Part shown: positions 8,579-58,413 of the stretch, piece by piece | Layout of the letters: each line of letters opens with the position of its first letter | How positions within the stretch are numbered: position 1 is the stretch's first letter | Assembly: GCA_002633005.1 (NCBI GenBank) | Contig: NMRA01000031.1 | Location: forward strand, 781,185-845,184 | Direction of reading: 5' to 3' | DNA from: Phoronis australis | Lineage: Eukaryota; Animalia; Phoronida | DNA length: 64,000 nucleotides | The notes under the pieces: generated by a model | Database searches by the model: none | Told to the model about the DNA's origin: nothing | What the model saw: the letters and a program-made list of their open reading frames with translations, nothing else | Translations under genes and position numbers: made by a program

Positions 8579-8844
8579 CAGGTTTAGGAAGACCTTTTTC
8601 ATGTAATTTTTAGCAAAAAATAAGGTTCGTTGATTATCTCAGACATATTTTTCACTTAACTACAGGATTTCGTAATTTAATTAATTGCTCGTTCTCTACT
8701 ACGGAAGTGACGTTTTGGGAGGCAAGAATTTCGCGCCAATTTCTTTTCATGTAGTTTGACTGAGAGGTGTCGAGTCAGTCATTGTTCTACCTCGGTTGTG
8801 ATAAGTTTGGTGGTCGTTTGCTTTTGTTTACTAGTCAGTACAAC

Positions 8845-9699: not shown

Positions 9700-11352
9700 T
9701 CTTAGGTTCACTACAAACTAAAGAATCCCTAAATCCAACGTAATTGGGTTCTCTAACAACCTAGCTTGTTGTAGAATACTTGTCGATGGGAAATTTTAGA
9801 AAAACCGCACGAAAACAAAAGTAGTACAGATCCTCACAGTAAACTCAACGCAGAACCAAATTGGAGCGAAATTTTTGCGTCCCAAAACGTCACTTCCGGA
9901 GTAAAGGACTAGTAATTAATTAAATTACAAAAAGCTGTAATTAAGTGAAAAATATGTCTAAGATAATCAACTAACCTTATTTTTGCTAAAAATGACATGA
10001 AAATGTTCCCTTTGCCTTTAAGTCTAAACCTAGTTTTGTTAAACCACCTTTATGAAATCGGCTGTTTGTGTCATATTTTTAAATCAGTCTCAGTGCCGAT
10101 TTTACAGTTTCGATAAAACTTCGTTCACATATACAGGTAAGTATTTGTCGGCTTTAAATTCGTTTAATAAGATTGATGTCTACACCGATTATTTCGACAA
10201 TTACATGAGAAATGGCCTCTCTCTTTAGATTGCTTACTACCAGCAAATGCTACCTGGCAAGTTTAGATTCGACCATCCGCTGAATATTAACGAACAATAA
10301 TAGAAAAATCGTCTTCGTTGTAGCTGTTATTCCCGTGACTAACTCTCAACGGATAATAACCAGGTCCATTTTTATCACACAGTATTTTTCACATGGTCGC
10401 ATATATTTCGTCACGGACCATATTTCTTTTTTTTCTTTTTTCTCTATATGAATTGCTTATACCCAGCTATCGTACGTACGTGTACATTTTCAAACATTAT
10501 CCCAAGTTCGTGTTCACCATTGTCTCTTGACAGAGTGGGACGCTTTGTAGTTCATTGGAAAAGAACTGTGTTTGTAAAAAAATGAAGTGTACGAGAAAGG
10601 AGAAAAAATATCGTCACTGTTAGTGAGAACGGCTATGCAGTTCGTGAGAGAGGAATATTGATGACTTCTCCGATAATACATTTTGGTAACGCTGACGCAG
10701 GCTAATCCGCATGAAATGCACAAAATTACAATAAAATGCTTATTGTTTATAAACGTTTTAAAATTTTATATATCCACCCCCATACAGCGCCATCTCGTGT
10801 TGTTTTGGTTAATGTTTTGGTGGCACCCTTTGTTTTGTTTTAATACGTGGGTTAGCGTTTCTAATTGTACATGATGAAAGAATGGACCGAATGTCATCCA
10901 TTGATTATTTTAACAGGAAGATAATGCCGCTGTTAACTTGATTTGTTCTAGTTTGAATTTTGTCATTTCGATTTGGCCTAATTAGCCCTGGAGATTTATA
11001 GAAATAAAAATTAGATTCTAATTGATGTCCGCCCTAAGGCTAGTATTCCACTGATTTAACAGGGATTTGTATACAACAAAGACTAGTTTTCATTTTAAAA
11101 AGTTTATTAAACCAAGCGTAAGTAAATACTACATAACCCGGCTCAGTTAGGTCGATATCCATTTCATCATATTTGTTGTCCATTTTTGTCTTTAGGTCCA
11201 TGCGCATGCGTTGTGCCTCTACCCGATTTGAGGCGCATGCACCTGCATAACAATCATTTGAGTAAATCCATGCTTGGGTGAAACAATTCCATTTTTCATC
11301 AATTTTAAAAAGATCTTGTGTTGCCGTTATTTTTTTCCGCGGTAAGCTTATG

Positions 11353-18671: not shown

Positions 18672-20657
18672 ATGGCAGCGGAGTTTGGTGCTCTTGGGAG
18701 TACTCGAGCGACCCCTGTGCGTCCCACGGAGAACTATCCTAGTGACTACCCGGACTCAGTGAAGGCAGATTTGATGTCTTTCCTTAACTATACGGGACCG
18801 TTTTCCGGAAACGTGAAAGTGGATATTCGCAACCCGATTTACTGGATGCAAATTACGAATGGCAGCAACCCATGCAAATACTTTCAAGACACTTGGCAAA
18901 ATGCGTCTGAGTTTTTTAATTGCTCAACAGATGTTGCAAGTACTGTAGTCAGTGTTGCATCTGTTATGAGTACAGCGACGCAGGGTAACGGAAGCACAAA
19001 CGGGACAGATACCGCTGCCACATATGACGTGGGGCTAACAGCCGTGTTCTCGCTGTTGGCTGCAGTTGTAAGCTTAGTTACAATTTTGGGCAATCTACTG
19101 GTGCTGGTCGCGTTCTTTGTTGACCGCTCAATACGTCAACCAAGCAACTATTTTATTGCTTCTCTCGCTGTCTCCGACTGCATCCTCGGATTGTCATCCA
19201 TGCCACTTTACACAATGTATGAGCTGCTTGGCTACTGGCCACTCGGACAATGGATTTGCGACCTCTGGCTATCGCTAGATTACACTGTCTGCCTCACCTC
19301 CCAATATACTGTATTCTTTATAACCTTAGACCGTTTTTGTTCGGTTAGAATTCCAGCAAAGTACCGAAACTGGAGAACTGAGAAAAAGATCTTGATTATG
19401 GTCGCTATTACCTGGATTCTGCCGACGCTCGTATTTTTCATATCGATCATCGGGTGGCAGTTTTTCGTTGGAGTAAGGACGGTTCCTGAAGACAAATGTT
19501 ACGTTCAGTTTGCTAGCAATCCTATTTTCAACACAGTACTCGTCATTGTATATTATTGGATCACATTGTTCATCATGTGTGGTCTCTATACGACCATATA
19601 TCGCGTTGCATGGAACCTCCAGAGAAAGAGCGAGGAAAAGCATAAAAAAATGACGAGTATAGTTAATATGGGGAATGCCATGACAAAAATTGGAATGGGA
19701 ATGGCAAATAACGCAGAAGAAAAGAAAAAATCAGAAAAGGTCTCTAAACCGCCTTTAAAGGTGTCGAAAAAATATTCAACGACCAGTTTTCAAAGTTCAC
19801 GGGAAAAGGATGACGCCTCTAGTGTTGTATATGCGTCTGACTCGGACAGCAATTCACCGAAACACTCCCCGAGTTATAAAAAGCATAGCTTTCGTATAGC
19901 GACACGGGAAGAGCCGCCTAAATCCAGCACGCTGATGGTACCGGTGGTGCATATAACCTCGTCAAACGGTATTGAACAGGCCCCCACCTACAACAAAGTT
20001 ATTAATAACAACATTAATGGAGTTGCCCATAAAGAACACGATCACGGCCAGGACGAGCGTGACTGCTTAACGTTTGTGCGAACTGCTTCCCTGAGGTCTT
20101 CCAATTCCGACAACCCTGACGTCTCAGATCCACCTACTCCGGACTCTCCAGTGTGGAAGAAAAGAATCAAGTTTCCTTCCGATGAGCAAAACAATGACGA
20201 AATCTCAGGCGAAGGGACTAAGCCTGTTTTTGACACTGTGTCCGAACACACTAACGGCAAAACAGTTACCAAAGTGGTGGCGCGGTCAGAACGCAAGGCA
20301 CGATTGGGTTTCAGTGGGGTCGTACAGCGGCTGTCGTTCCCAAAACTTCTTAAGAGAAACAATAAGGAAAAAGTGAAAAAGTCAAAATCCGAAAACAGAG
20401 CAAGAAAAGCATTAAAAACTATAACTCTCATTTTGGGAGCCTTTGTGCTGTTTTGGACTCCGTATCACATTGTGGTACTCATCTATGGTTTCTGTGAATC
20501 ATGCCGCGAATCCAAGCTAATCAACTTGGTCTATAGCATCACCTATTGGCTTTGTTATTGCAATTCGCCGCTTAATCCGTTCTGTTACGCTGCCGCTAAT
20601 CAAAATTTCAAGAAAACGTTTACTCGAATCCTGAAAGGCGATTTCCGCCGTCGGTGA
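18672..20657 (+). CDS. Muscarinic acetylcholine receptor, B-type (mAChR-B / GAR-2-like), class A GPCR, 661 aa, intronless CDS
   Basis: Seven TM segments: GNLLV (TM1), SLAVSD (TM2), CDLWLSLDYTVCLTSQY with the amine-binding Asp and DRFCSV (TM3), long Ser/Lys-rich ICL3, ARKALKTI...FWTPYHI (TM6), YWLCYCNSPLNPFCY (TM7). Multiple N-glycosylation sequons in the N-terminus. Confidence 0.95.
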   Translation: MAAEFGALGSTRATPVRPTENYPSDYPDSVKADLMSFLNYTGPFSGNVKVDIRNPIYWMQITNGSNPCKYFQDTWQNASEFFNCSTDVASTVVSVASVMSTATQGNGSTNGTDTAATYDVGLTAVFSLLAAVVSLVTILGNLLVLVAFFVDRSIRQPSNYFIASLAVSDCILGLSSMPLYTMYELLGYWPLGQWICDLWLSLDYTVCLTSQYTVFFITLDRFCSVRIPAKYRNWRTEKKILIMVAITWILPTLVFFISIIGWQFFVGVRTVPEDKCYVQFASNPIFNTVLVIVYYWITLFIMCGLYTTIYRVAWNLQRKSEEKHKKMTSIVNMGNAMTKIGMGMANNAEEKKKSEKVSKPPLKVSKKYSTTSFQSSREKDDASSVVYASDSDSNSPKHSPSYKKHSFRIATREEPPKSSTLMVPVVHITSSNGIEQAPTYNKVINNNINGVAHKEHDHGQDERDCLTFVRTASLRSSNSDNPDVSDPPTPDSPVWKKRIKFPSDEQNNDEISGEGTKPVFDTVSEHTNGKTVTKVVARSERKARLGFSGVVQRLSFPKLLKRNNKEKVKKSKSENRARKALKTITLILGAFVLFWTPYHIVVLIYGFCESCRESKLINLVYSITYWLCYCNSPLNPFCYAAANQNFKKTFTRILKGDFRRR

Positions 20658-40163: not shown

Positions 40164-41306
40164 TAACTTCTCTGATAACCACTTATAATACTTGAAAATT
40201 CTACCATCCAATTAAGTGTATTAAATTTGGTCACTGCCGAACAAGCTCAGTACTGTACATCACCCATACGATTTTATTTAGAATCAAAATTGATGTAACC
40301 TCATAAAACCATTTGAAAGCTATTTTACGTAACCTAATGCATCATGAATGAATACTGCTAGACTAATCTGGTCCGCTATTGAGAGACACCCAAACCGGCC
40401 TCCGAGTTGATTTTGGTCAACCCACTACAGGTAACTAGGGCCTACTTGAAACTCACTGCATAACGTCCAGCATAACTCCACGTGACAAAGTTGTTTTGAG
40501 CCAGATAATCTCAGTCCCAAAATTGAGCTAGACCAACTCAAGATGTAACCCCAGAAAACTCGTTTCAAAATATTCAACTCAACCACGGATATCATGATTG
40601 AACACTGCACGTCAAATGAGTGGTGGATTACCCTCTCCAGACACGCCAAAACCTCCAATTTTAGCTAAATCAACCCACCGCGTAACCGTTGAAAGCAACA
40701 ATTCCAACATGTTCAGGGTCAGTCCACATGGCACAACAGTTACACAATTTCAGAGGTGGGATGCCTCAGCCAGATCAACTAAAGAATCGAAACAACAAAA
40801 TTCCCAAAATCTCATTTACGATGAAGGAATACTAGCTACTTGATTGTACCTTCCATGGTGAGTCAATTGAAATCAACCAATTCCATTACAAATTTATGTT
40901 ACGGTGACTGTGAGTGCACAAAACGAATAGTTGTCTTTTCCAGGCAAATTGGTTTACAAACTGTATTACCTGAAACTACTTGCTACAAGTACGCACTTAG
41001 CCAAGTACTCAGTAACAACTTTAGTATTTCCCATCCAGTGTAACGAGACCACTTTAAGAAGCCATTGTCGATTTTTTTTACTTCTGTCTGTGTCAGTGAT
41101 TTCAAGTAAATCCTTCACAGGCTATCGGGGAACCACTGATACGATCGGTTACTGACTTCGTCTTTCGTTGCGTGAGTCTTTCAACTCTTCCTCGACGGAG
41201 CACTAGTCCAATCTAAGTTGCTTCTTAGTCAAAGCGGGACTCATTTCAAACTTTTAAGTCGACTCGAGAAATGCCGTTTAAGTACTTTGTTCAAAACACA
41301 ACCGTA

Positions 41307-41781
41307 TTGCTGTTGCCGCCGCCGGTAGCCTGCTGCCTGCTGCGTACCGGTGTCGCTGCTGCTGCCTCTGCCGATTATAATGTCGTCTGATGGCTGTTGT
41401 CTGCCTGCTGTTGATGCTGCTGCTGCTTGTGCTTCTCCTGCTTCAGTTGTTCCTGCTTCTGCTGCTGCTGTTGCTGCCGCCTGCCAATTGCCGCCTGCCT
41501 GCTGTCTGCCGCTGTTGCTGCTGCTGCCTCTGCCGTTGTCGACTGCTTCTTGAGCCTGTCTCCTGCCGGCTGTCGATTGCTGTTCCTGCTGCTTGTGCTG
41601 CTTCTGCTTCTGCTGCTGCTGCCGACTGCTTCCTGCGGCTGCCATCAGTCACCTGCCAGCTGCTGATGCTGCAGCTTGTTCTGCTACTGGTGCTGCTGCT
41701 CATGCTGCCTGCCTGCCTGCTTGCCTGCCTCCCTGCCTGCCTGCCTGCTGTTGTTTCTGCTTCTTCTGCTGATGATGCTGA
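41307..41781. repeat. Compound degenerate (CTG)n/(CCTG)n low-complexity tract
   Basis: About 470 bp of gct/gtt/gcc triplets plus a (gcct)n block near 41706-41747. Confidence 0.85.
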
Positions 41782-44181
41782 AGCTAAAGGACGCGGACCA
41801 AACCCAGACATCGATCATCAATGTACACTATTGCCCTCGTCACTTGAAAAAACATTCTTCACGTCACGTGAGTTTTTATTACAAATTCGCTAAAACTACC
41901 CATCACTAGAAATGAACAATAAAGAAGAAATTCGATTTTTGTGGCTAATGGCAGTGCTCAAGGTAGTTGGTTAGAATGTCATGTGATTTCTTGAATCTCG
42001 TTTTAACTGGGACACTCTTCTTAAAGCTAAATATACGTGAAATGTGTGTTTACAAAATCGACAGTCGGCTAACACAGGGTCGGAAATTTAGTTCATTGAA
42101 ATCGCCACTTTCTGAGTTACAATGCAGGATGCTGACAAAAGCTAAGGAAACTGAAATGAAGTGACGTCAAACTATGTGTCTACAATGAGGCATGCAGCTA
42201 ATTGTCCTCGGAGATGCACAACGAGTTCACTCAGTTGAACAACTGTGTTTTCATTCGTAGATATCATTAGACAACCAAATAGCTAACTGGCTACAAAATA
42301 CAACTGCTTTTCTCAAAATGTCGAGAACCCAAATTTCTTTAAGGCGATGTCGAAGTCTAGAAAAGTGGCCAAATTTAGTTAACTTCCGGAACATCTTTTC
42401 TCGGAAATGGCTGATCGGATTTATTTAAAACTTTCAAATATTACGCTTTGTGCGCTGTCTTCCAATTTAAGGTCAGGAATTGTTTCCATTTTTGTATGAG
42501 AAGCTATGGAAAATTAGGACTTTTGTGTTTCTATGGAAAATTAGGACTTTTGTGTCTCTACGAAAAAAATAAATGTTTGATAAAAAAGAAGCGATAATTT
42601 AAAAAATGTGCAGATTTTTTTGAGACTTTATCTTGAACATTTAAATCAAACAAAATTTGGTCACTGTATTGATACCGTTGTTTAGCTATTATACAGAAAT
42701 GTGACAATAAAATCAAATGTGGAGATTGCCGATGACAGTGAACAGGCTTATTGTCTACAACTAGTATCCCATCTGTCGGCGAATTCTGCGTACTCCTCGT
42801 ATATAGTGCTGTCAGCCTGTGGGAAATGAGTTAAAAGGTTTTCACAATATAAACATATACCTGGTGGATATGGTGAAAGGCACCGTGTCGCCCTGGCCAT
42901 CTTGTTTTACAAGTTTATCTGTGTCTTCTTTTTCTTATTGCCGTCGGACGCGTCGGACCGATTCCCAATAGTTGCCAGTCACTTAATTTTGCCCTTTTGG
43001 GGGATTTCTGGGCGACCCATCTACTTGTTGTGTATCGAACTTCTGTGCACTCTCTGGGTGAGTATAGCGCCGCCTGCCCAAGGCTCGCTGTAACGTGTGT
43101 GCACACCGAAATGACCCTTCACATCGCACACGCCTTTGTAATTTGAGCGGACCACAACTTAGCTGCCGACTACATTCGGTTTGCCCGGTTTGCTGACATC
43201 CTTTCTCGTGTACTATAATTGACAGCTGACAAACAGTCATTTACAGCTAAAAGTATTTTACGGACGTAATTGAAAAGTAAAGATGCACGGGTAATATGAA
43301 TTAAATTCGGCTTCTTACCCGGTTGGGGGGTGCTCTCGCACCCGACGCACTCCTCCCCCGGACACGAGTACATGTATGTTTAATACATATATGATTGAAT
43401 TACAGCTAACATGTGCAACTCGTGCCTCCTGTTGGCCATGAAATAAGTATGGTTAATCATAAAAATTGGTAAGATCTCGCTGAACTCCGATTGCGGTTCA
43501 TGAGAGTACGAAATAATGCTTGTGCGAAAAGAATTGTGAAGTTAGTGCCGTGAATGAGAACAATCAAGAGGGGAGAGGAAGATTGCCATCAACCGTTGCA
43601 TAGATGTAAATTTAGTTGTCCACTCGTTTAGTTGCCATTATCTTTTTACTTATGAGGCCGATGTACCTGTATTCGAAACACTTAGTGCGGTTTTCGGCAA
43701 TGACTTCTTCTCTTCAATTTTTTTGCATACACATGCCTAAGTAGCTGTCATTTCTTGTACATATGCACTGTTTTTGTTTTTGTATCTATTCGAAATACTT
43801 TAATAGATTTACACTGTTGTTTGAATACGTCTGTTACAGTCGTAAAATACTGAAATTCGTTTTCGGTTTTAACTCAGATGTTTCACAAATAGGCGCCCGC
43901 GTCTTACTTCTGTCTGATTCTTTCCCTTGAATGCAGTCTGATTGAAGTTGCGCGCAGTGCAACTATATGCCAGGGACTTTGCGGTAGTACTCTTAATATC
44001 AGAAGGCCCACTATTATGAGATTAAAAATGTAGATTTAAATCAAAAATCTTCATAAGTCCCAAGTTGTTAGAACACTCCGTGCTTAGCTCTGGTGTCCAA
44101 TAAATTGTCTTTTCAGTAGAGCTAATCAGTGACTGTTTAATGTACGGCTGTGCCGTAAGAGGGCAAACCAAGCGTGGATAC

Positions 44182-44224
44182 AGCGCGTGCGCACTGACTG
44201 CAGCAAAGTGTTTACAAGATGGCG
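44182..44224 (+). promoter_or_regulatory. NRF1-like and YY1-like motifs at the CCDC169 start
   Basis: agcgcgtgcgca at 44182-44193 and caagatggcg overlapping the ATG. Motif match only. Confidence 0.35.
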
Positions 44225-47200
44225 GACGTCGAAGTTGTTGACGAGTATGAACTTGAGAGATTACGAGCCGAATTGCAACAAGAAAAACAGATGACGTGCG
44301 TTTTGTATTATTCGTTCTTTTCCAAATGATTTCCAGAACACGTCCCATTATTTTGGTAAAAATTCGAAGGAAAGAAATTGGATTTCCTTGCATTATGATG
44401 TAGAGAATTTAGCGATTTTATGCGAACCCATTTTTAGTCTGTAGGTGAAAATGCTTACATGTGAATGTAGTCTTATCCCTTTGTTGAGTTGTTAAATGGC
44501 ATGTCCACGATACATTTTATGCCTTGGATATTATTGTGAAAGTAAAATTTCGATGGCAGTGAGCAAGCACTTCTTGTATACATAACATTACTACTGGTAA
44601 ACCACATCCATTCAACTTATGCAATTGTTAAACATTCTGCGAGATCACGTGGGGAAGACCACAACTAGGCTTGTGTTGCTTACTATCAGTGACAAGTTTT
44701 TCCTCCTAATTGACGCGGTGAACTTAGGGTAGTGTTGTACATGTGCTTCCAATGAATCATATGAGCCTCCGTTAGGTACTCACTAACGGGCAATTGCCTA
44801 TTAGCTGAATGGTTAGCACGCTTGCCGGGTTTTATGGGGGTCGCTGGTTCGATTCCCGGGTCGGGCAATATCGGCTATTACTACAAATGGCGTAGTCGGC
44901 AAACAGATGATCTACCGATGAAGCACTGACAACTAGTACCCGCGGACCTCAGGACGGTGCGCATGGAAGGTTCCAGGAGTCGAGGACTTGTATGAGAGAC
45001 TATCTTGTGTTCACCTGTGTTGTAGTGGTAAAAGTACCAAGGAACGTTGATGACCTGTATGCGAGACATCCTGGTGTTCACCTTCTTGGTGGCGTGCCTG
45101 TTCTGCAGGAAAGGGGGGAATGTTGTAGATGTGCTTCCGGTGAATCATATGAGCCTCTGTTAGCTACTTGCTAATGGCAATTGCCTATTAGCTGAATGGT
45201 AAAGTATGCTTGATGGTTTTATGGGGGTCGCTGGTTCGATTTCTGGGTCGGGTAATATCAGCTATTACTACAGCAGGAATTACCTTCCTATAAAAAGGCA
45301 GGAAATACTACTTTTGCAGGCTCACTTTGACAAATGACACAACTCACTTAGCTCTGCCAATATTCAACCCAAGAGGATAGTTGTCCTGACCCTGTGTAAA
45401 ATATATGGCACGGTTTTTCCTGATGTGTTTTATTTTCAGGGATATGTTAAATCAGTCAGCAGGTGAACTCAAACTGACTGTGGATCAGTTGGAAAAGAGG
45501 TTTGATAGTGTTGAACAAGAAGGTATGTTTATCAATATTCACACTTGTTAGCATGGGCTATGTCTAGTAAAGATTTGTTGCTCAGCAACAGTGTACCAAC
45601 ATGCTGCAAAATCTACACTCTTTCACAGTGCCATTTCTGGGTTATTAATGGCATTGTACGAGGATTATGCATTGGCAAGCCCTGATTCAGTGTCCGTCGT
45701 GGACTTCCAAACAATGGGGTCTGGTGAACCCAATTTTGGGAGTGAATTTCAATTTTTTGGGATTGATGGAAATGGTATCTGGAGAAATCAAGTTACACCA
45801 GCACTGAACAAAGCAGGATGTGTTGTGGAAGAATAAGAAGAGTATAGTGAAACTTTCATCAATGAAAAGTAAAAGAAGATAACCAAGAAGTGAAGTGGGT
45901 TGTTTGGAATTTTGTAGACATTGTTTCTTGCACCATATCAAAAATGAATCCAGGGTGATACACACATAAATCAGGGTGGGTTTTTTCATGTAACTGTGTC
46001 AAGTAACTAAAGAATGTAGCCATTTAGGAGCACGGGTGGTCATTATTAATGATCTGGGAATAAATTCGAAAAGGTTGATGAATCAATTTTTTTATTTTAC
46101 TTGATGCTTTGTTATTTTGAGTGAGTCAAAAATATACACAAACTTGTGTGGAGTGCAGCTTTTATAGAAATGTATTGCGTCATGAATACGAATATTTTTT
46201 TCTCAACATCATATGCTAATTTATGATAGACTTTTGTGACCTTTTAAGTATTCCACAGCTCAAGTGTCAAGACTCAAGAGCCCTCTGTACAGGCTTCCTA
46301 AAAACATGGTCTCAATACTCAAATAGGTTATTGAAAATCCTGAATTGACAAGCCTCAAATTGCTGATCATTGATCTGCTGTTTACAGGAAATGAGTGGAA
46401 AACAAGATATGAAACTCAAGAAGAAATGAACCAGCAGCTCCAGAGGCAGATCTTGTTGTTACATGAAAAAGTTGAAGAGACCCGACAGGCAATTAAAGAA
46501 GGTAAAGTATAAGATAACACTTTCTGCAGAAAATTTGGAAATTACCCTGTTCTGAGGAAATGCAAGCTTAATGATACCAAAGAAGTTCCCGAAATCTTGT
46601 CAAAGCAGTTTTGTCAAAGTCATACGACAAAACTGAAAATGAAAGAAGATGATTTAGTGAATTAAATCTGTGCATAATTAGTAGAAAGTGTTTGCCTTAA
46701 AATTTAGTATTTTTTGTGGTAAAATTGTTCTCAAAAATACTACACTTAAACAAAGCAGTTTTATATTTCATGCAGATTTGTGGATACACTAATACGTTAA
46801 GTCCAATTTCTGCCTGAAGATGTCATGTCATGTTAAGTATAGGGTATCTATGCCCGGTTGCATGAAACAGTCCCTAAATGTTAGGGATGTCCTTAAGTCT
46901 TAGGGACGTACTTAACTTTTAGGGACTGTTGCATGAAAAGTTCCCAGTTAATTTAGGCATTAAATAGGGACTCAACTTTTGGGCTACCTAAAGTAAGTCC
47001 CTAAGTTGTGTGTTTCACCTGGCACCACCTACTATGAACCCAGTGGTTTTAAGCTAACTGAACAGATTTCGTCCAAAAGGAGTAGTTTTTTCATTGAAGT
47101 GATAAATATTTTAAGAATTTGTATTGAAGCTAATGCTAGCCATGTGATACAGCTACAAGTGTTTCGTCTTTTGTCTTCCCATTTTTATCTGCAGTGGTGT

Positions 47201-50200
47201 AATGTGTGTGTAATTGTGAGAGTTAGTGAGTTGTTGAAATAGCCTTGTCTCGTGTCCTCCTCAATAGATGTTGTTGTTTACTGTTGCCCTTGAAGAAGAG
47301 CTTGTTGCCTCAGGTAAGCTAGGTTTGTGGCACGGATTTGAAATGATTTGTTGCAACATATGTAACATCTAATTAGTAGTTAAAACATTTGTGTTCGGGC
47401 ACGCGTGTAATAATTTATGTACTGTGTGAATTTTTAAAGTTTGGATGTATGGAAAACATTTTTATGTGTTACAGTTAATTTGATTAAAATATCGAGAGCT
47501 TGTGATTTGAACAATGTATAATTTATTATGTAACATTTAACACTAATTGTTAGTTTTGTTGAAAATATTTAAGACTGAAGTTGTAAACGCAGTTTTCTGT
47601 TACTTATGTGCATCTGAAAGTTCTGGGAATGCACTAATAGTCTTTAGAATGTCACAGATAAAGGAGTATGCAGCTCGCTGCATGATTCACGTAATCTTAA
47701 AGTATTAACCGCACCACAGTAGTTGCACATGCACCAATCTATGGTTAAGTGTTTGTTTACAATAGTATCAAGTCATCAAGTGTTTCTTTTTATAATTAAT
47801 GCAACATCCTGGTTTAGGATCAGGTCACTTTATAATTTGATGCGCAAATTAACTGAGGTCTCTTGTATGTGATTACGTTTGTGTTTGCAAACTCCATTTG
47901 TTGCATGTTTTATTTATTGTATAATAGTGCAACTTTTGGCCTACACATCTATATCAGAAAATGTGCATTTTTAAAAGATGGACTTTGGTCTTTCTACATG
48001 CTAGGCCTATGCAACTTAACTTCACTTATAAGCTCAGGTGACCTTCCCTTACATATGTCTGTGTCTTAAACTGTTTTCCTTTGTATATCTCGTCTATTCT
48101 TAGCATTACTTATAGTCAATGCAAAGTTGAATACACGTCTACATTTACCATTTTGGAACGGATAAGTTTCACACACATATATCTTTAAGTTAGCTCCTGA
48201 CATCAGTAAGTGCATTTGCATAATTCCAGATATAGGCACATCTTCAAATATTACATCATGGGCTTAAATACACGTGTATATGTGATTCATATGTGCTAGA
48301 TAAATTCTTCACCATTGAGATACCCCACCATTTATTGTTAAGTCTCGCCTTCTCTCATGGTAATGCTAATACCTGCAGCTTGGTTATCAGCGATGAAGAT
48401 GGAACTTCATATCGAGACATCTGTTGCTCGCTTCTTAAGACACTATAACCATCATCTACCAGAGTGAGACCTTGCACGTATTGATGAAAATATGAAATGT
48501 AATTAATATTGTATTCATGTGAGCGGTCCACAATACCTGACATGTCTGTCTGTCTTTCAGGAAAAGAGGCCCAACACGCACCTAGGACAGGGGGTTACAA
48601 CCTGGAAGAGGTAAACTAGTCTCTGTCTCAGTTGTCTCCCACACTCATTAGAAACTTGGCCTTATCATGGTTGTGTGTGTACTTCATAAATAGATTTGTT
48701 CACAGATCGCAGTAGACAGAATCCTTCATTGTTACAAACGCAGATTTATCTTTTTGTATAGAGTAGGGCAATTACCTAATTTGCTATGATGTCATGGCAA
48801 TAACATATTGTGTGGAAAAATAAAACTATGGTATACTAAAACGGGTGATTTTTCAACCTGTTTGATTTTTAAAATTGAATTCCTCATGAAAGTCTGTGTT
48901 GTTGTTTTTTTTTCGAAGAAATACGGTAGGCAAAAACGATGTCATTGTTTCTGTTGTGATGACCCATGGACTTGACTATGGTACACAATTGGTTTATGAC
49001 TTGTTAGCTCTAACAAAAGATCACCAGAACGCTTCACTATATAAATGACTCTTGCCATAGAATCTGCGGTTTATGATCAATATGTTACTGTCTTTGTTTT
49101 AATAGTTTGACCTAGTTGACAGTGATACCCTTGAAGAAGTGTCATCTGTGTTGATGGACCTTTTACGATCTCTCCAGCACACATTTAGAATGATAAATAA
49201 TGACCCCGTCACCACCAAACTTCAGTCAAGATTAATCTCGAAAATTGATCAATCGCACGACGTGTTTCATGTGAACTTTCATATTTCACGCTACGTGATT
49301 GGTTGAGTTAAGTGTCAAGTATTGGTGGTCATGGGCCCTTTTGACTAAAAATTATGTCTGCTTTGAGTAAGGTAATTTCCCACAATGGCGTATCTTGCTA
49401 TTCATAAAAAGGTCAAGAGGCATCTTTGCTGTAAGATAGGATAACATAATAATGATTTATGATGATTCAATGCATATTGGTGTATAAGCCTAACTTTGGA
49501 CTTTTTAATTGATAATTCCAGGCAAATCCACATATGATAAAGATGTTGGAGAGAGAAAAACAGAGCCTTGCTGGCCAGCTGAGAGATTTGGAGTGGAGGC
49601 TAGACCAGGAGTCCAAGGTTGGTTGGTTTGACAATAAGTTATTGAGAGTTACTGAAATGGCATCATAAATTATCAGGGAGGTATACAAGTTTGGCATTTG
49701 TGATGTGTGTAAAAAACACATTTCTTCAAAATGTTTTTTCCGTTAATTTTCTGTAATTAATTTAAAGTTGTATTTTGTCCTGCTTAGTTGGCTAAAAATG
49801 AAAATTGAGGCCTTTTGCTCTCATAAAATTAATCTCATAACATTCCTTGCCATGTTAGGATTCTATTTGGTTACCATCTAGAAAATCCAAACCATCTGTT
49901 ACTCGAGCAAATGCTTTATTGGTGCTGGTCAAACCTAAATTTTTAATTCAAAATGACACTAGCATGCATTGCCTGTGACTTGAGTTAGTAATGGAAATGG
50001 ACTCTATCACTATAAGGAATATTATGAGACCGATTTAATGTCAGAGTGTAAAAGGCCAAATTTGATTTTCGTTTTTAGCCAGCTACTGTATAGCGCAGAA
50101 TGGAGCTTTAAAATTGTGCAATATCATCAGGTTGGCTATATTTTCCAGTAACTATTTATAGACCTAATTCACGCCAACAGGAGGCGCGTTCCAAAACGAG

Positions 50201-52245
50201 GCTTGTTACGATAGCTTTTTTGGCAGGCGTACTCAGTGTATTCCACGTTGCTCGAACGGCTAGAAAAAATACGGCCACTCAGCTGTCTGTTTTACAATCC
50301 CTAAGGACGTTGAAATTTGGAAGCGTTGGGTCATTGTCATACGCCGCTACTAAAGAAAATATGTCCGTGTAAAATTTATAAATTTTTTCAAAAAATTATA
50401 ATCGACCAGCCAGGCTGTGTTTTCATGACTGCGGGTTGAAAGATGATGCATATTTCTTTCCAAAAAGGTCAGGGCCCTTCTTCACTCGATTTTGGGGCCG
50501 AATATCGGCCTTATTTCCCTCTCAAAAATACTAAAAAATCCCCCGAAATTCCACCCTAAAAATTCCCCTAGTGATTAAAAAGTAGTTTCCCGCGAAGCTC
50601 AAATCACCTGTAACCACACAGGTGACAATTTGAAAGAGCACAAAATGCTTCCTGAGACAGAGCCTATGAAAGCTTGCAACAGCAGGGCGGAGGTGCTATT
50701 GATGATGATTGGGAGGTAGATTTTCCCCGTCTCGGCGAAAAAGTTCCCTTTTCTGAGACACCTTTCCCCTCGGATAAACAAGGCCTCTAAAGAAACATGA
50801 TAACTATGCTTGCTCAGTCTAGTTAACTGAAATAGACGTAAGAATTATTAAAACCAAGAAAGCAGAATTGATGGTCAAATAATTACTTGTGAATGTGTGC
50901 ACGGGAGTGAATGAGAACCTGGTTATAATCATGCGAAAGCGATTTCTGGGGCTGTGCTCATTTGTTTTTCAAAAATTAAAAAATGGTTGTCCTTACCTCA
51001 CTAGGAATTAGGCTATGCTTGATGTTAATATTCTTGATCAACAAATTAAACCAGATGTGACTAATTGCATATGAGAGCAAAATGTGATGAGACACCATTG
51101 TCAAAAACATCTTCAACTCGTCAACAATACAAGCAGATGACCTGGTTTGTGTAGAAAGCATTTTTATCACCAATTTTCAAGAAGAAACGTAACACTGCAT
51201 TCAGCATAATACCTAATCCGTAACACTATGATCGCCGCAGTTTGATCATATTTACGTTTCACGTTTCAAACCTAGTTTTCAGAAAAAAGCTTATACCCTT
51301 TCGTAGACAACTCTTTGGTGTATTGACTTGTTCTCTCATGTATTTTTCTACATCGCTGTGGTTAATTTCCGACACAGTTTTTTAAAAGATTTACTATCCA
51401 GGTTGGACTCGAAAGACTGGCCATTTAACTCGCGTAGTGTCAACTTCCGCTTTGTTTATCGCAGTGAGCCTCGCTTTGGATTTTAATGTCCGCCGCGTGA
51501 ATTAGGTCTATACTTTTGGTTCTGTTGTACCTTACATATTGTGACTATTTCTTCAGGCTTACCACAAAGCAAATGAAGAGAGAAAGAACTACATGCTGGA
51601 AATAAACTCTGGGAAGTACAAGGTGGATCCATATAAAAACCAAAAGAGAACAGCGTCGCGAGACGATGCCGCATCTAAAACACCTCGTGAACGGTAAGCC
51701 AAGCACGAGGTCTTTCAGTTTGTTAATTAATTGGTGCATAGGTCACGATCGATGTATCGTCTGCATTGCGATGAATCTCTCAGCGTACAAACTGTTCATT
51801 CCCTTGGTTAGATTAGATAGGAAATCTCACTACTTCTATTTACTAGTTGAATAACTGGAGGCATCTCTTCAATAAACAAACGATTTTTGTCCAACCTTTG
51901 GCAACAAGATTTTCAGCTGTGCCCATGAAAACTGGACTTTTATGTTCTGAAAAACACGCTATTTAAACAACTGGGCAACCTAACTTTGGGCTTGGTGACT
52001 TGTTTTCCTGACTCGCACCCCTCTAATGAGTGGTCTTTGGAGGCTTAGGTATTATATCTCTGGAAAGACAGTACTTTTTTACCTCTCCTGGTCCTAACTT
52101 TATCCTTTTCTTTAATAGCAATATCCCTGAGGATCAAAGAATCATCGACCCGAAGCGAGGCCCAATCAAGAAAACAGCTGCAGTGCAAAGGTTACCTAAA
52201 CTGGACAATGAGTCAAGTCACTCCAACACTCCAATATCCATGTGA
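44219..52245 (+). CDS. CCDC169: Coiled-coil domain-containing protein 169 homologue, 7 exons, 227 aa
   Basis: Phase-consistent GT-AG exons: 44219-44295, 45440-45522, 46388-46501, 48561-48610, 49522-49617, 51557-51693, 52119-52245 (684 nt). Family motifs EGNEWKTRYETQEEMN, LEREKQSL...LEWRLDQESKAYHKANEERKNY and DPKRGPIKKTAAVQRLPKL. Confidence 0.9.
44733..45272 (+). mobile_element. Miniature non-autonomous LTR retrotransposon (TRIM) with tRNA-like LTRs, Helenus-like
   Basis: LTRs 44733-44885 and 45121-45272 (TG..CA, about 20 differences by eye). PBS tggcgtagtcggca at 44888-44901; PPT aggaaaggggggaa at 45107-45120; flanks gtag/gcag. A and B boxes in each LTR. Lies in CCDC169 intron 1. Confidence 0.9.
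46851..47010. mobile_element. Terminal arm of a PIF/Harbinger-like element
   Basis: gcccggttgcatgaaac followed by repeated gtccctaa/ttagggac subrepeats. The other end was not confidently located. Confidence 0.45.
50160..51509 (+). mobile_element. Decayed ISL2EU-like DNA transposon with THAP remnant (CCDC169 intron 5)
   Basis: Perfect inverted ends at|agacctaattcacgc ... gcgtgaattaggtct|at (AT TSD). 50237-50347 translates CIPRCSNG*KKYGHSAVCFTIPKDVEIWKRWVIVIRR, the N-terminal half of a THAP domain. Confidence 0.75.
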
Positions 52246-57014: not shown

Positions 57015-58413
57015 TTTTTATGCGCCCACACATTTATATGTGGACGCATTATGCCACCATCTCCGTCCGTCCGTCCGTCCGTCCGTCCGTCCGTCCGTCC
57101 GTCCGTCCGTCCGTCCGTCCGTCCGTCCGTCCGTACGTACGTACGTACGTCCGTCCGTCCGTCCGTCCGTTCGTCCGGGCGGCGTCCGTGCGGCGTCCGC
57201 TGCTCTATCTCCAAAACTCTTTGACATACGCTCAAGAAATTTGGCATATATGTTCCATTCCTGAATGGGACGGCATGAGCGAACTTTCGGACGGATCCGA
57301 CTACCGGTGTGCCCCCTAGTGGCAATTTTAGTTTTTTACGCTTACCTTTGTATCTTCAAAAGTCCTTAACGGATTTTCATGAAATTTAATATGTAGGCAC
57401 TTATTAGTGAGATGACGCTATCCTCCCGTTTTCGGATGGATTCGGCGTAGTTTGTGCTACATAGTGGCCATTTTTACTGTTTTCGAGTCTGTTTTTTTTT
57501 TGCGTCCACCCCTCTTTTAACCAAACCGCTCAAAGGTGATAGTGAAAATTGGCATGTATGTGTTTACTATAAAGAGGACGGTTGACGATGATTTTTCGAC
57601 GATTTCGACTAGTTTGGGGCCTTCTAGTGGCAGTTATGTTTTTGTTGCGCCAATGGCTGTATCTCCTAAACCGTTCGCAGAATCTTTACTAATTTAGCAA
57701 GTGTATTTATGTGATGTTGACTACGGATGACGACGACTTTCAGACAGATCTGACTACTGCTGTGCCCCCTAGTGTCAATTTTAGTTTTTTCCGTTTAACT
57801 CAGTATCTTCAAAGGTCCTCAACAGATTTTCATAAAATTTTAAATATAGGCATCTATTGGTGTGATGACGGTATCTTCCTGTTTTTGGATGGAATCGAGG
57901 TATTTTGCACCACCTAGTGGCCACTTTTGCTGTTTTCAAATCTTATTTTTGGTGTCCATTCCTGTATCAACCAAATCATTTGAAAATTGGCCTTTATGTT
58001 CTCAGTGTGAAGACCACCTTTGATGATGGTGACTGATTACTTCTTTCGCCTCCTAGTGGTAGTTTTGTTTTGCACCCATAGTTGTATCTCTTAAACCCAC
58101 TGCAGGATCTTTACTAAATTTAGTTAGTAAGTGTATTTATATGAAGATAACAACAGACGACGATCACTTTCAGGCGGATCCAATGGACACTGTGCCCATT
58201 AGTGGCAATTTCATTTTATTCTGCTTTCCTTTGTTTTTCTGAAGTTCCTTGAGGACAGATTTTTATGAAATATGGTATGTTCCTGTTTTTGGATGGATTG
58301 TATGTTTTTGCGCCATTTAGTTTCCATTTTTATGATACAAATGAACAAGCCTAAGAGCACACCATTTGCAATGCATTCGTGGGCGCATTTCAACGTTCCG
58401 CGCTGCTCTTGTT
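57015..58413 (+). mobile_element. Helentron-associated non-autonomous element (HINE/DINE-1-like) with internal tandem array
   Basis: Starts in a T-run. SubTIR atgcgcccac (57020-57029) with a partial inverted copy just downstream and its partner gtgggcgcat (58379-58388). A (GTCC)n microsatellite is followed by about 145-bp tandem units. Confidence 0.75.
57062..57176. repeat. (TCCG)n/(TACG)n tetranucleotide microsatellite
   Basis: Directly visible; part of the HINE-like element. Confidence 0.95.

What the first reader, a model, noticed from the sequence alone, without database searches (positions are those of the whole stretch)
44733..45272. SINE-LTR hybrid: 540-bp LTR retrotransposon whose LTRs contain a tRNA-like Pol III promoter
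Seen: two 152-153-bp direct repeats with TG..CA ends; a PBS 2 nt after the 5' LTR (tggcgtagtcggca); a PPT abutting the 3' LTR; a 235-bp non-coding interior; and a near-perfect 4-bp TSD (gtag/gcag). Each LTR holds a tRNA-shaped unit (44796-44867) with A box tagctgaatgg and B box ggttcgattccc, oriented toward the PBS. Known: the PBS is complementary to the 3' end of eukaryotic tRNA-Ser (...UGCCGACUACG-CCA). Plant Cassandra TRIMs carry 5S promoters, and, as I recall, a recently named Helenus (TRIMp3) group carries tRNA-like LTRs with 4-bp TSDs in animals. Inference: a Pol III-transcribed parasite mobilised in trans by a Gypsy-type element. The class is probably known but is rare, and this family may be undescribed. 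Many LTR differences are C>T at CpG, suggesting a methylated, older insertion. A T4 run inside the tRNA-like unit may impair read-through.
Basis: partly seen in the sequence, partly recalled or inferred. Interest (0 to 1): 0.8.

Follow-up and report, generated by a model that had tools for sequence, protein, structure and literature searches.

The report
Old Helenus mini-retrotransposon with palindromic promoter
This is a decayed copy of a very abundant, gene-less 540-base jumping element of the Helenus type described in 2024, sitting in an intron of a marine invertebrate gene; it is likely copied by RNA polymerase III, and a palindrome just ahead of its tRNA-like promoter, which many published relatives share by eye, may help define and join the ends of its RNA.

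Summary
In detail: LTRs of 153/152 bp (87% alike, TG..CA), a 14-nt primer site matching tRNA-Ser, a 14-nt purine tract, a 235-bp non-coding interior, and GTAG/GCAG flanks. DNA runs of one sample show a large family: over 1,000 contigs per run lie on the stretch, with unrelated flanks piling up exactly at the LTR ends. RNA reads suggest two more copies with 4-bp duplications and show this copy spliced out with intron 1 of a DUF4600 gene. It meets the tested criteria of Helenus (Kojima 2024). Its primer site is absent from that paper's sequence file, and the host appears to be a non-molluscan lophotrochozoan. The scan has noted Helenus-like elements before (46 findings, at least 13 genomes). Pol III transcription is not shown; RNA-seq gave no start or end. 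New here: each LTR holds a 23-24-nt palindrome ending in box A. By eye, 54 of 76 published non-insect animal Helenus LTRs and both Ajax carry the same module with different self-complementary centres; the paper's text does not mention it. It may set a short, self-pairing R region. Verdict: new family of a known kind, with a testable mechanistic lead.

The parts
44729..44732 (+). left target-site copy GTAG
44733..44885 (+). 5' LTR, 153 bp, TG..CA
   Evidence: loose ends of other copies pile at 44885/44886
44771..44787 (+). upstream hairpin that shares its 3' arm with the palindrome (imperfect in this LTR)
   Evidence: sequence, predicted fold of the 3' equivalent
44782..44805 (+). 24-nt near-palindrome with perfect 10-nt core 44789-44798, ending in the first four letters of box A
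   Evidence: (I9, I10)
44802..44812 (+). box A-like motif, 5' LTR
   Evidence: motif definition PMC10886601
44830..44833 (+). T4 run inside the tRNA-like unit (candidate leaky terminator)
44846..44856 (+). box B-like motif, 5' LTR
44886..45120 (+). non-coding interior, 235 bp, with a 38-bp internal repeat (44979-45016, 45046-45083, 79%)
44888..44901 (+). primer-binding site, 14 nt complementary to the 3' end of tRNA-Ser
45107..45120 (+). polypurine tract, 14 nt
45121..45272 (+). 3' LTR, 152 bp, TG..CA
   Evidence: loose ends of other copies pile at 45121
45170..45192 (+). 23-nt palindrome of the 3' LTR (core 45176-45185), preceded by a competing hairpin 45159-45174
45189..45243 (+). box A (45189-45199), T4 (45217-45220) and box B (45233-45243, one letter off) of the 3' LTR
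45273..45276 (+). right target-site copy GCAG (3 of 4 match)
44296..45439 (+). host intron 1 (GT..AG, 1144 bp) of a DUF4600 gene that holds the element in the same orientation
   Evidence: spliced reads 18, 4 and 3 in runs X5-X7; Pfam PF15372 on later exons

Best explanation
This is an old, CpG-decayed copy of a multi-copy, non-coding miniature LTR retrotransposon of the Helenus type in a host intron; its family was likely transcribed by RNA polymerase III from the tRNA-derived boxes in the 5' LTR, likely primed by tRNA-Ser, and likely copied and inserted by the proteins of an unidentified Gypsy-type element. Shown: the anatomy, the family, the intronic site, the CpG decay. Inferred cycle: Pol III would start in or just ahead of the palindrome (about 44782-44796), read through the weak T4 of the 5' LTR part of the time, and stop at the same T4 in the 3' LTR, giving an RNA of about 430 nt with a repeat (R) of 35-50 nt; the palindrome, present in both copies of R, is predicted to pair the two ends (or two RNAs) and so aid packaging and the first strand transfer. 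I put the class at about 0.9, Pol III use at about 0.6, and a role for the palindrome in end-pairing or termination at about 0.4.
For: Anatomy. Family: 1,080-1,559 contigs laid per DNA run, summed depth 120-490 times the flank over the interior and 2,400-4,500 times at the LTR peak (rough, not a copy number); 45-64 contigs per run break off at 45121 and 26-34 at 44885 into unrelated sequence. Two probable further 4-bp duplications in RNA reads, GCCC/GCCC in X7 and GAAG/GAAG in X5 and X6 (table 7; that the two flanks belong to one insertion is inferred). Helenus definition and 4-bp TSD/Gypsy link; 4-bp TSDs are the rule for Drosophila Gypsy families, 5 bp for Pao/BEL (PMC3276498). T4 is a minimal, incomplete terminator (PMC5725217 abstract). 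Palindrome self-duplex -27.6 and -30.6 kcal/mol, matched by at most 0.13% of 4,000 random window 24-mers; 17-21 expected pairs between the two copies if the RNA starts at or before 44788. Palindromes and end-to-end pairing serve Ty1 dimerisation and cyclisation (PMC4974528 passages).
Against: No RNA start or end pile-up in three RNA runs (18-19% of each read); reads lie on both strands, antisense exceeding sense over the 5' LTR bins, and 67-71% run on into unlike sequence, i.e. mostly passengers in host transcripts. No tRNA call by ARAGORN or Rfam and no fold above shuffles. The palindrome beats only 143 of 200 shuffles in the 5' LTR (57 as good) against 199 of 200 in the 3' LTR; any repeated palindrome pairs in a fold prediction; with a start at 44796 the cross-pairing falls to 3.8 pairs. 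The 25-nt stretch identical between the LTRs is not unusual (p=0.43). One X8 contig runs past the LTR end into flank, so at least some RNA (if it is RNA) does not stop at the T4. The TSD here has a mismatch. All four DNA runs are one sample and may be the window's source. No autonomous partner was sought, as no genome is held.
Confidence: 0.72

Rival explanations
1. Same element, but the RNA ends just before box A of the 3' LTR: Pol III would start inside the palindrome, so the hairpin cannot form in the 5' LTR, while in the 3' LTR the whole hairpin is transcribed and helps release at the short T-run that follows, giving a very short R as in Cassandra.
For: Hairpins within 7 nt improve Pol III release at T4 in yeast (bioRxiv 10.1101/2021.08.27.457903, section read). 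Cassandra has an 18-bp R inside its 5S part (as told in PMC10886601). By eye, published LTRs with the module have TTT straight after the palindrome and often lack a T4 after box B (about 16 of 54 have one, against 20 of 22 without the module).
Against: T3 is below the minimal T4; this family has TATT there, weaker still; related families are not independent counts; no RNA end seen.
Confidence: 0.15
2. An ordinary TRIM transcribed by Pol II (own LTR or host read-through); the tRNA-like part is a relic of an ancient SINE insertion and no longer a promoter.
For: RNA reads are mostly embedded in host transcripts on both strands; cloverleaf lost; Pol III use is unvalidated for all Helenus.
Against: Boxes A and B are kept while the anticodon arm is lost, the pattern expected if the promoter is what matters; 1 LTR difference in 50 nt around the boxes against 19 in the other 102 (post hoc).
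Confidence: 0.12
3. Two independent SINE insertions, or a local duplication, that mimic an LTR element.
For: The TSD is imperfect; no second copy lies in the 64-kb window.
Against: PBS and PPT at the exact LTR borders, TG..CA ends, no tails, and an interior that is itself repeated over 100-fold.
Confidence: 0.01

Closest known systems
Helenus (TRIMp3), animal families; Kojima 2024, PMC10886601 (whole main text read; supplement parts 1, 5, 6, 7, 10, 11 of 11 read and two searches)
   Same: Under 1 kb, two LTRs with a tRNA-like unit keeping TRGCY..YGG and GGTTC, tRNA 3'-end PBS, PPT, 4-bp TSD, many more LTRs than interiors. LTR 153 and interior 235 bp lie in the range of the mytilid families (e.g. 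Helenus-2_MyGa 144/226). The layout ahead of box A resembles Pinna, mytilid, scallop, nemertean and fish families.
   Different: None of six short motifs of this element occurs in the supplement (line breaks could hide some, but not the PBS, which opens a record). The two tRNA-Ser primer sites in Fig. S2 are of other types. The only T4 lies inside the tRNA-like unit, and TATT replaces the usual TTT before box A. The host does not look like a listed species.
Ajax (5S-type TRIMp3 of nemerteans; same paper)
   Same: TRIM with a Pol III promoter remnant; by eye both Ajax LTRs have a short self-complementary stretch plus TTT ahead of the promoter.
   Different: 5S-derived promoter, tRNA-Leu primer, 5-bp TSD.
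Cassandra (plant TRIM; PMC7215508 passages; the 2008 paper was not held)
   Same: Pol III promoter and terminator inside the LTR, short R, self-complementary LTRs that fold on each other.
   Different: 5S-derived, plant, iMet-type PBS; transcription shown there, not here.
Ty1 PAL and CYC elements (PMC4974528 passages)
   Same: Palindromes proposed to dimerise the RNA; pairing of the RNA ends needed for reverse transcription.
   Different: Autonomous Copia-type, Pol II RNA; the elements lie in the 5' region and coding part, not in a Pol III promoter.

Membership tests
Helenus | TRIM: under 1000 bp, no coding capacity | tested here: met
   540 bp; longest stop-free frame 87 codons
Helenus | Two LTRs with defined ends | tested here: met
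   153/152 bp, TG..CA, 87%; other copies break off at the same ends
Helenus | tRNA-derived sequence in each LTR with box A (TRGCY, YGG) and box B (GGTTC) | tested here: met
   Both motifs in both LTRs, 44 nt start to start; met by motif only, as ARAGORN and Rfam call no tRNA
Helenus | PBS complementary to a tRNA 3' end | tested here: met
   14-nt match to the human tRNA-Ser template in PMC3299991; the host's own tRNA set was not available
Helenus | PPT next to the 3' LTR | tested here: met
   14 purines, 45107-45120
Helenus (animal) | 4-bp TSD | tested here: met
   3 of 4 here; two further probable exact 4-bp pairs in RNA reads; no full table possible
Helenus | Interspersed family with solo LTRs | tested here: met
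   LTR depth about ten times interior depth; unrelated flanks at both LTR ends
Helenus (animal) | PBS shared with an autonomous Gypsy element of the same host | not testable with these tools
   no genome held
TRIMp3 | Transcription by RNA polymerase III | tested here: inconclusive
   RNA-seq of unspecified selection shows no start or end
tRNA-derived SINE | tRNA head at the 5' end, LINE-like or A-rich tail, longer variable TSD | tested here: not met
   62 bp precede the tRNA-like unit, ends are TG..CA, no tail
Retrozyme | Self-cleaving ribozyme in each LTR | tested here: not met
   no Rfam match at E up to 10 over 44600-45400; an undescribed ribozyme is not excluded

The most novel reading that the evidence does not exclude
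A hairpin-plus-palindrome module fused to box A is a conserved, covarying cis-element of one ancient lineage of animal Pol III mini-retrotransposons (fish, coelacanth, bivalve and nemertean Helenus, Ajax, and this family). It solves the problem of using one LTR sequence as both start and stop by making the R region self-complementary, so that the RNA's ends pair and the 3' LTR alone terminates.
Probability: 0.33. Interest if true: 0.62.

Novelty: new member of a known kind. Interest (0 to 1): 0.4.

Why it matters
As a family it adds a primer type and probably a host lineage to Helenus, which is modest. The palindrome matters more: how a Pol III transcript can read through a terminator in the 5' LTR yet stop in the identical 3' LTR, and how it jumps strands with a very short R, is unanswered for all TRIMp3 except in outline for Cassandra. 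A module shared across vertebrate and lophotrochozoan families would also question the paper's view that these groups arose separately. Both points can be tested in zebrafish or oyster, where RNA and ChIP data are within reach.

Tried and rejected
No genome is held, so no genome-wide census, TSD table, host tRNA match or partner search. ARAGORN and Rfam found no tRNA or ribozyme (two chance-level hits at E 5.8 and 7.1). A box B-LTR end-PBS pattern gave 1 viral and 2 metagenome loci; two are the same contig, none has an LTR pair or similarity beyond the pattern: rejected as chance. No RNA holder was listed by the run search. The tRNA-like unit cannot prime its own PBS (best 8 of 14). The 25-nt identity between LTRs is not significant. 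'Goes back about 387' joints are expected when solo LTRs fit partly to either LTR, so they are not counted as tandem arrays. No empty-site joint is among the 15 joints shown of 91, so fixation is unknown. A target preference with a central TA is hinted by DNA loose-end consensus lines but the two probable TSDs in RNA reads do not fit it. Host placement rests on one gene and a quick tree (SH-aLRT 81 with Lingula); 34 of 120 listed hits were used. The 2008 Cassandra paper was not held. Searches 'Helenus+retrotransposon+tRNA' and 'TRIMp3' gave no later paper on animal Helenus; the scan's notes had no look-alike sequence and none on the palindrome.

Full report
Observation. The coordinates are right. 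Two direct repeats of 153 and 152 bp (44733-44885, 45121-45272) begin TG and end CA, are 87% alike (11 transitions, 6 transversions, 3 gap columns; K2P 0.12) and enclose 235 bp that open, after two letters, with TGGCGTAGTCGGCA and close with 14 purines. The flanks are GTAG and GCAG. No frame in the element is open for more than 87 codons. The window holds no second copy. Contigs of all four DNA runs cross both element-flank junctions without a difference, except that the X4 3' piece is listed the same way from 45216 (table 8); these runs are one sample and may be the window's source.

It is a family. No genome is held, so I laid public runs on the stretch. In four DNA runs 1,080-1,559 contigs lie on it; summed depth is 4-53 on the flanks, 120-490 times that over the interior and 2,400-4,500 times at the LTR peak (the tool warns this is not a copy number). 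Contigs break off into unrelated sequence exactly at 44885/44886 and 45121 (26-34 and 45-64 per run at the two main sites), as expected for many separate insertions and solo LTRs. RNA reads of other samples show GCCC on both sides of an LTR in X7, and GAAG on both sides in X5 and X6 (table 7); pairing of these flanks is my inference.

Setting and age. RNA reads splice 44295 to 45440 (GT..AG; 18, 4 and 3 reads), so the copy lies, same strand, in intron 1 of a gene whose later exons match Pfam DUF4600 (E 1e-12 and 1e-7; the name CCDC169 is recalled). CpG observed/expected is about 1.0 over most of the window but 0.38 in this gene body. Of 31 sites I picked from the shown rows where most other copies read another letter, 20 are C>T or G>A in this copy and 11 of those are at CpG (background 28%, p=0.011; only 40 of 100 and 40 of 142 rows were shown). 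So this is an old copy decaying in a likely methylated gene body. A muscarinic receptor in the window has its best named hits in Lineus, Lingula and molluscs (the top three at 44-57% identity); a quick tree of 35 rows puts it outside molluscs, annelids and arthropods and weakly beside Lingula (81). The host is thus probably a lophophorate-like lophotrochozoan not among the paper's species; a phoronid is a guess, and one gene cannot settle it.

Primer and promoter. The PBS matches 14 nt of the human tRNA-Ser template printed in PMC3299991 (one passage seen). Boxes A and B are in both LTRs, 44 nt apart, and the combined pattern is rare by chance (0.017 per window). But ARAGORN and Rfam see no tRNA and the unit folds no better than shuffles: a promoter remnant, not a tRNA. 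The T4 is in both LTRs, is the only T4 on the strand, and is kept or lengthened in other copies, so the family spread with it. RNA-seq does not show Pol III use: 584-636 reads per run, both strands, two thirds running on into unlike sequence, no start or end pile (selection unspecified, 18-19% read, so a short unpolyadenylated RNA could be lost). One contig of X8, a guessed RNA run, covers 44837-45253, exactly one period plus 30 letters, which hints at an expressed copy with matching LTRs; a second contig leaves the LTR end into flank.

The palindrome. Each LTR has a 23-24-nt near-palindrome whose last four letters are the start of box A, around a perfect core GGCAATTGCC, and a hairpin just upstream that competes for its 5' arm. 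Its self-duplex is stronger than 99.87% of random window 24-mers; against LTR shuffles it is significant in the 3' LTR (1 of 200 as good) but not in the 5' LTR (57 of 200). Reading Kojima's Data S1 by eye (not computed), a self-complementary core followed by TTT directly before box A occurs in 33 of 51 bivalve, 18 of 18 vertebrate and 3 of 3 nemertean Helenus LTRs, 0 of 3 Lingula and 0 of 1 ctenophore (54 of 76), and in 2 of 2 Ajax. Wasp and fungal families were seen only in part, did not show this form, and are not counted. The cores differ while staying self-complementary: GGGTTAACCC, GAAGTACTTC, GAAGATCTTC, GTCCGGAC, GGGAATATTCCC, CCCATGGG. About 16 of the 54 have a T4 after box B, against 20 of the 22 without the module. 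Families are related, so these are not independent counts. The paper's main text has no 'palindrom', 'hairpin', 'inverted' or 'self-compl'; its figures were not visible to me.

Mechanism. Shown: structure, family, site, decay. Inferred from the class (PMC10886601; Drosophila Gypsy TSDs in PMC3276498 passages): tRNA-Ser priming, and copying and insertion by a Gypsy-type helper. Inferred and untested: Pol III starts in or near the palindrome and ends at the 3' T4, which as a minimal terminator (PMC5725217 abstract) can be passed in the 5' LTR part of the time; the two palindrome copies are predicted to pair (17-21 pairs if the start is at or before 44788, 4 if at 44796), as palindromes and end pairing are proposed to do in Ty1 (PMC4974528 passages). 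A rival ends the RNA before box A through hairpin-aided release (bioRxiv 10.1101/2021.08.27.457903, abstract and one section), but this family has TATT there.

Comparison and novelty. All testable Helenus criteria are met; SINE and retrozyme criteria are not. Six motifs of the element, including the PBS, are absent from the supplement, and Fig. S2 lists other tRNA-Ser sites. Repbase itself could not be searched, so 'undescribed family' rests on this paper and searches. The bivalve TRIM paper (PMC6934838 passages) describes a different element without a canonical PBS. The scan's own notes list 46 Helenus-like findings in at least 13 genomes, none alike in sequence. Verdict: a new family of a known kind; interest 0.4, carried mostly by the palindrome lead.

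Noticed in passing
window 18675-20657 (+): Intronless 660-codon muscarinic acetylcholine receptor gene; used to place the host.
   Followed up: yes
window 44219-51700 (+): DUF4600 (recalled as CCDC169-like) gene with a CpG-poor body (o/e 0.38 over 45273-50000) in a window that is otherwise near 1.0: mosaic gene-body methylation.
   Followed up: partly
window 46858-46938: Near-perfect fold-back of two 40-nt arms 1 nt apart (83% complementary) in a host intron; looks like a small inverted-repeat element.
   Followed up: no
window 8596-8742 and 9858-10003: 147-bp inverted repeats (89%) about 1.4 kb apart, enclosing open frames with a THAP-like Cys/His pattern by eye; possibly a DNA transposon remnant.
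   Followed up: no
window 57283-58330: Tandem repeat of about 450-bp period (72% alike) next to a (CCGT)n microsatellite near 57070-57190.
   Followed up: no
window 41240-41890: GC-richer low-complexity stretch of CTG/GCT-type repeats with long open frames on both strands.
   Followed up: no
window 44979-45083: 38-bp internal repeat in the element's interior; RNA and DNA joints show other copies with 39-bp and 76-bp interior differences.
   Followed up: partly
window 44809: A copy expressed in X5 and X6 carries a 4-letter insertion in box A and a different sequence upstream of 44794, i.e. a truncated or rearranged LTR.
   Followed up: no
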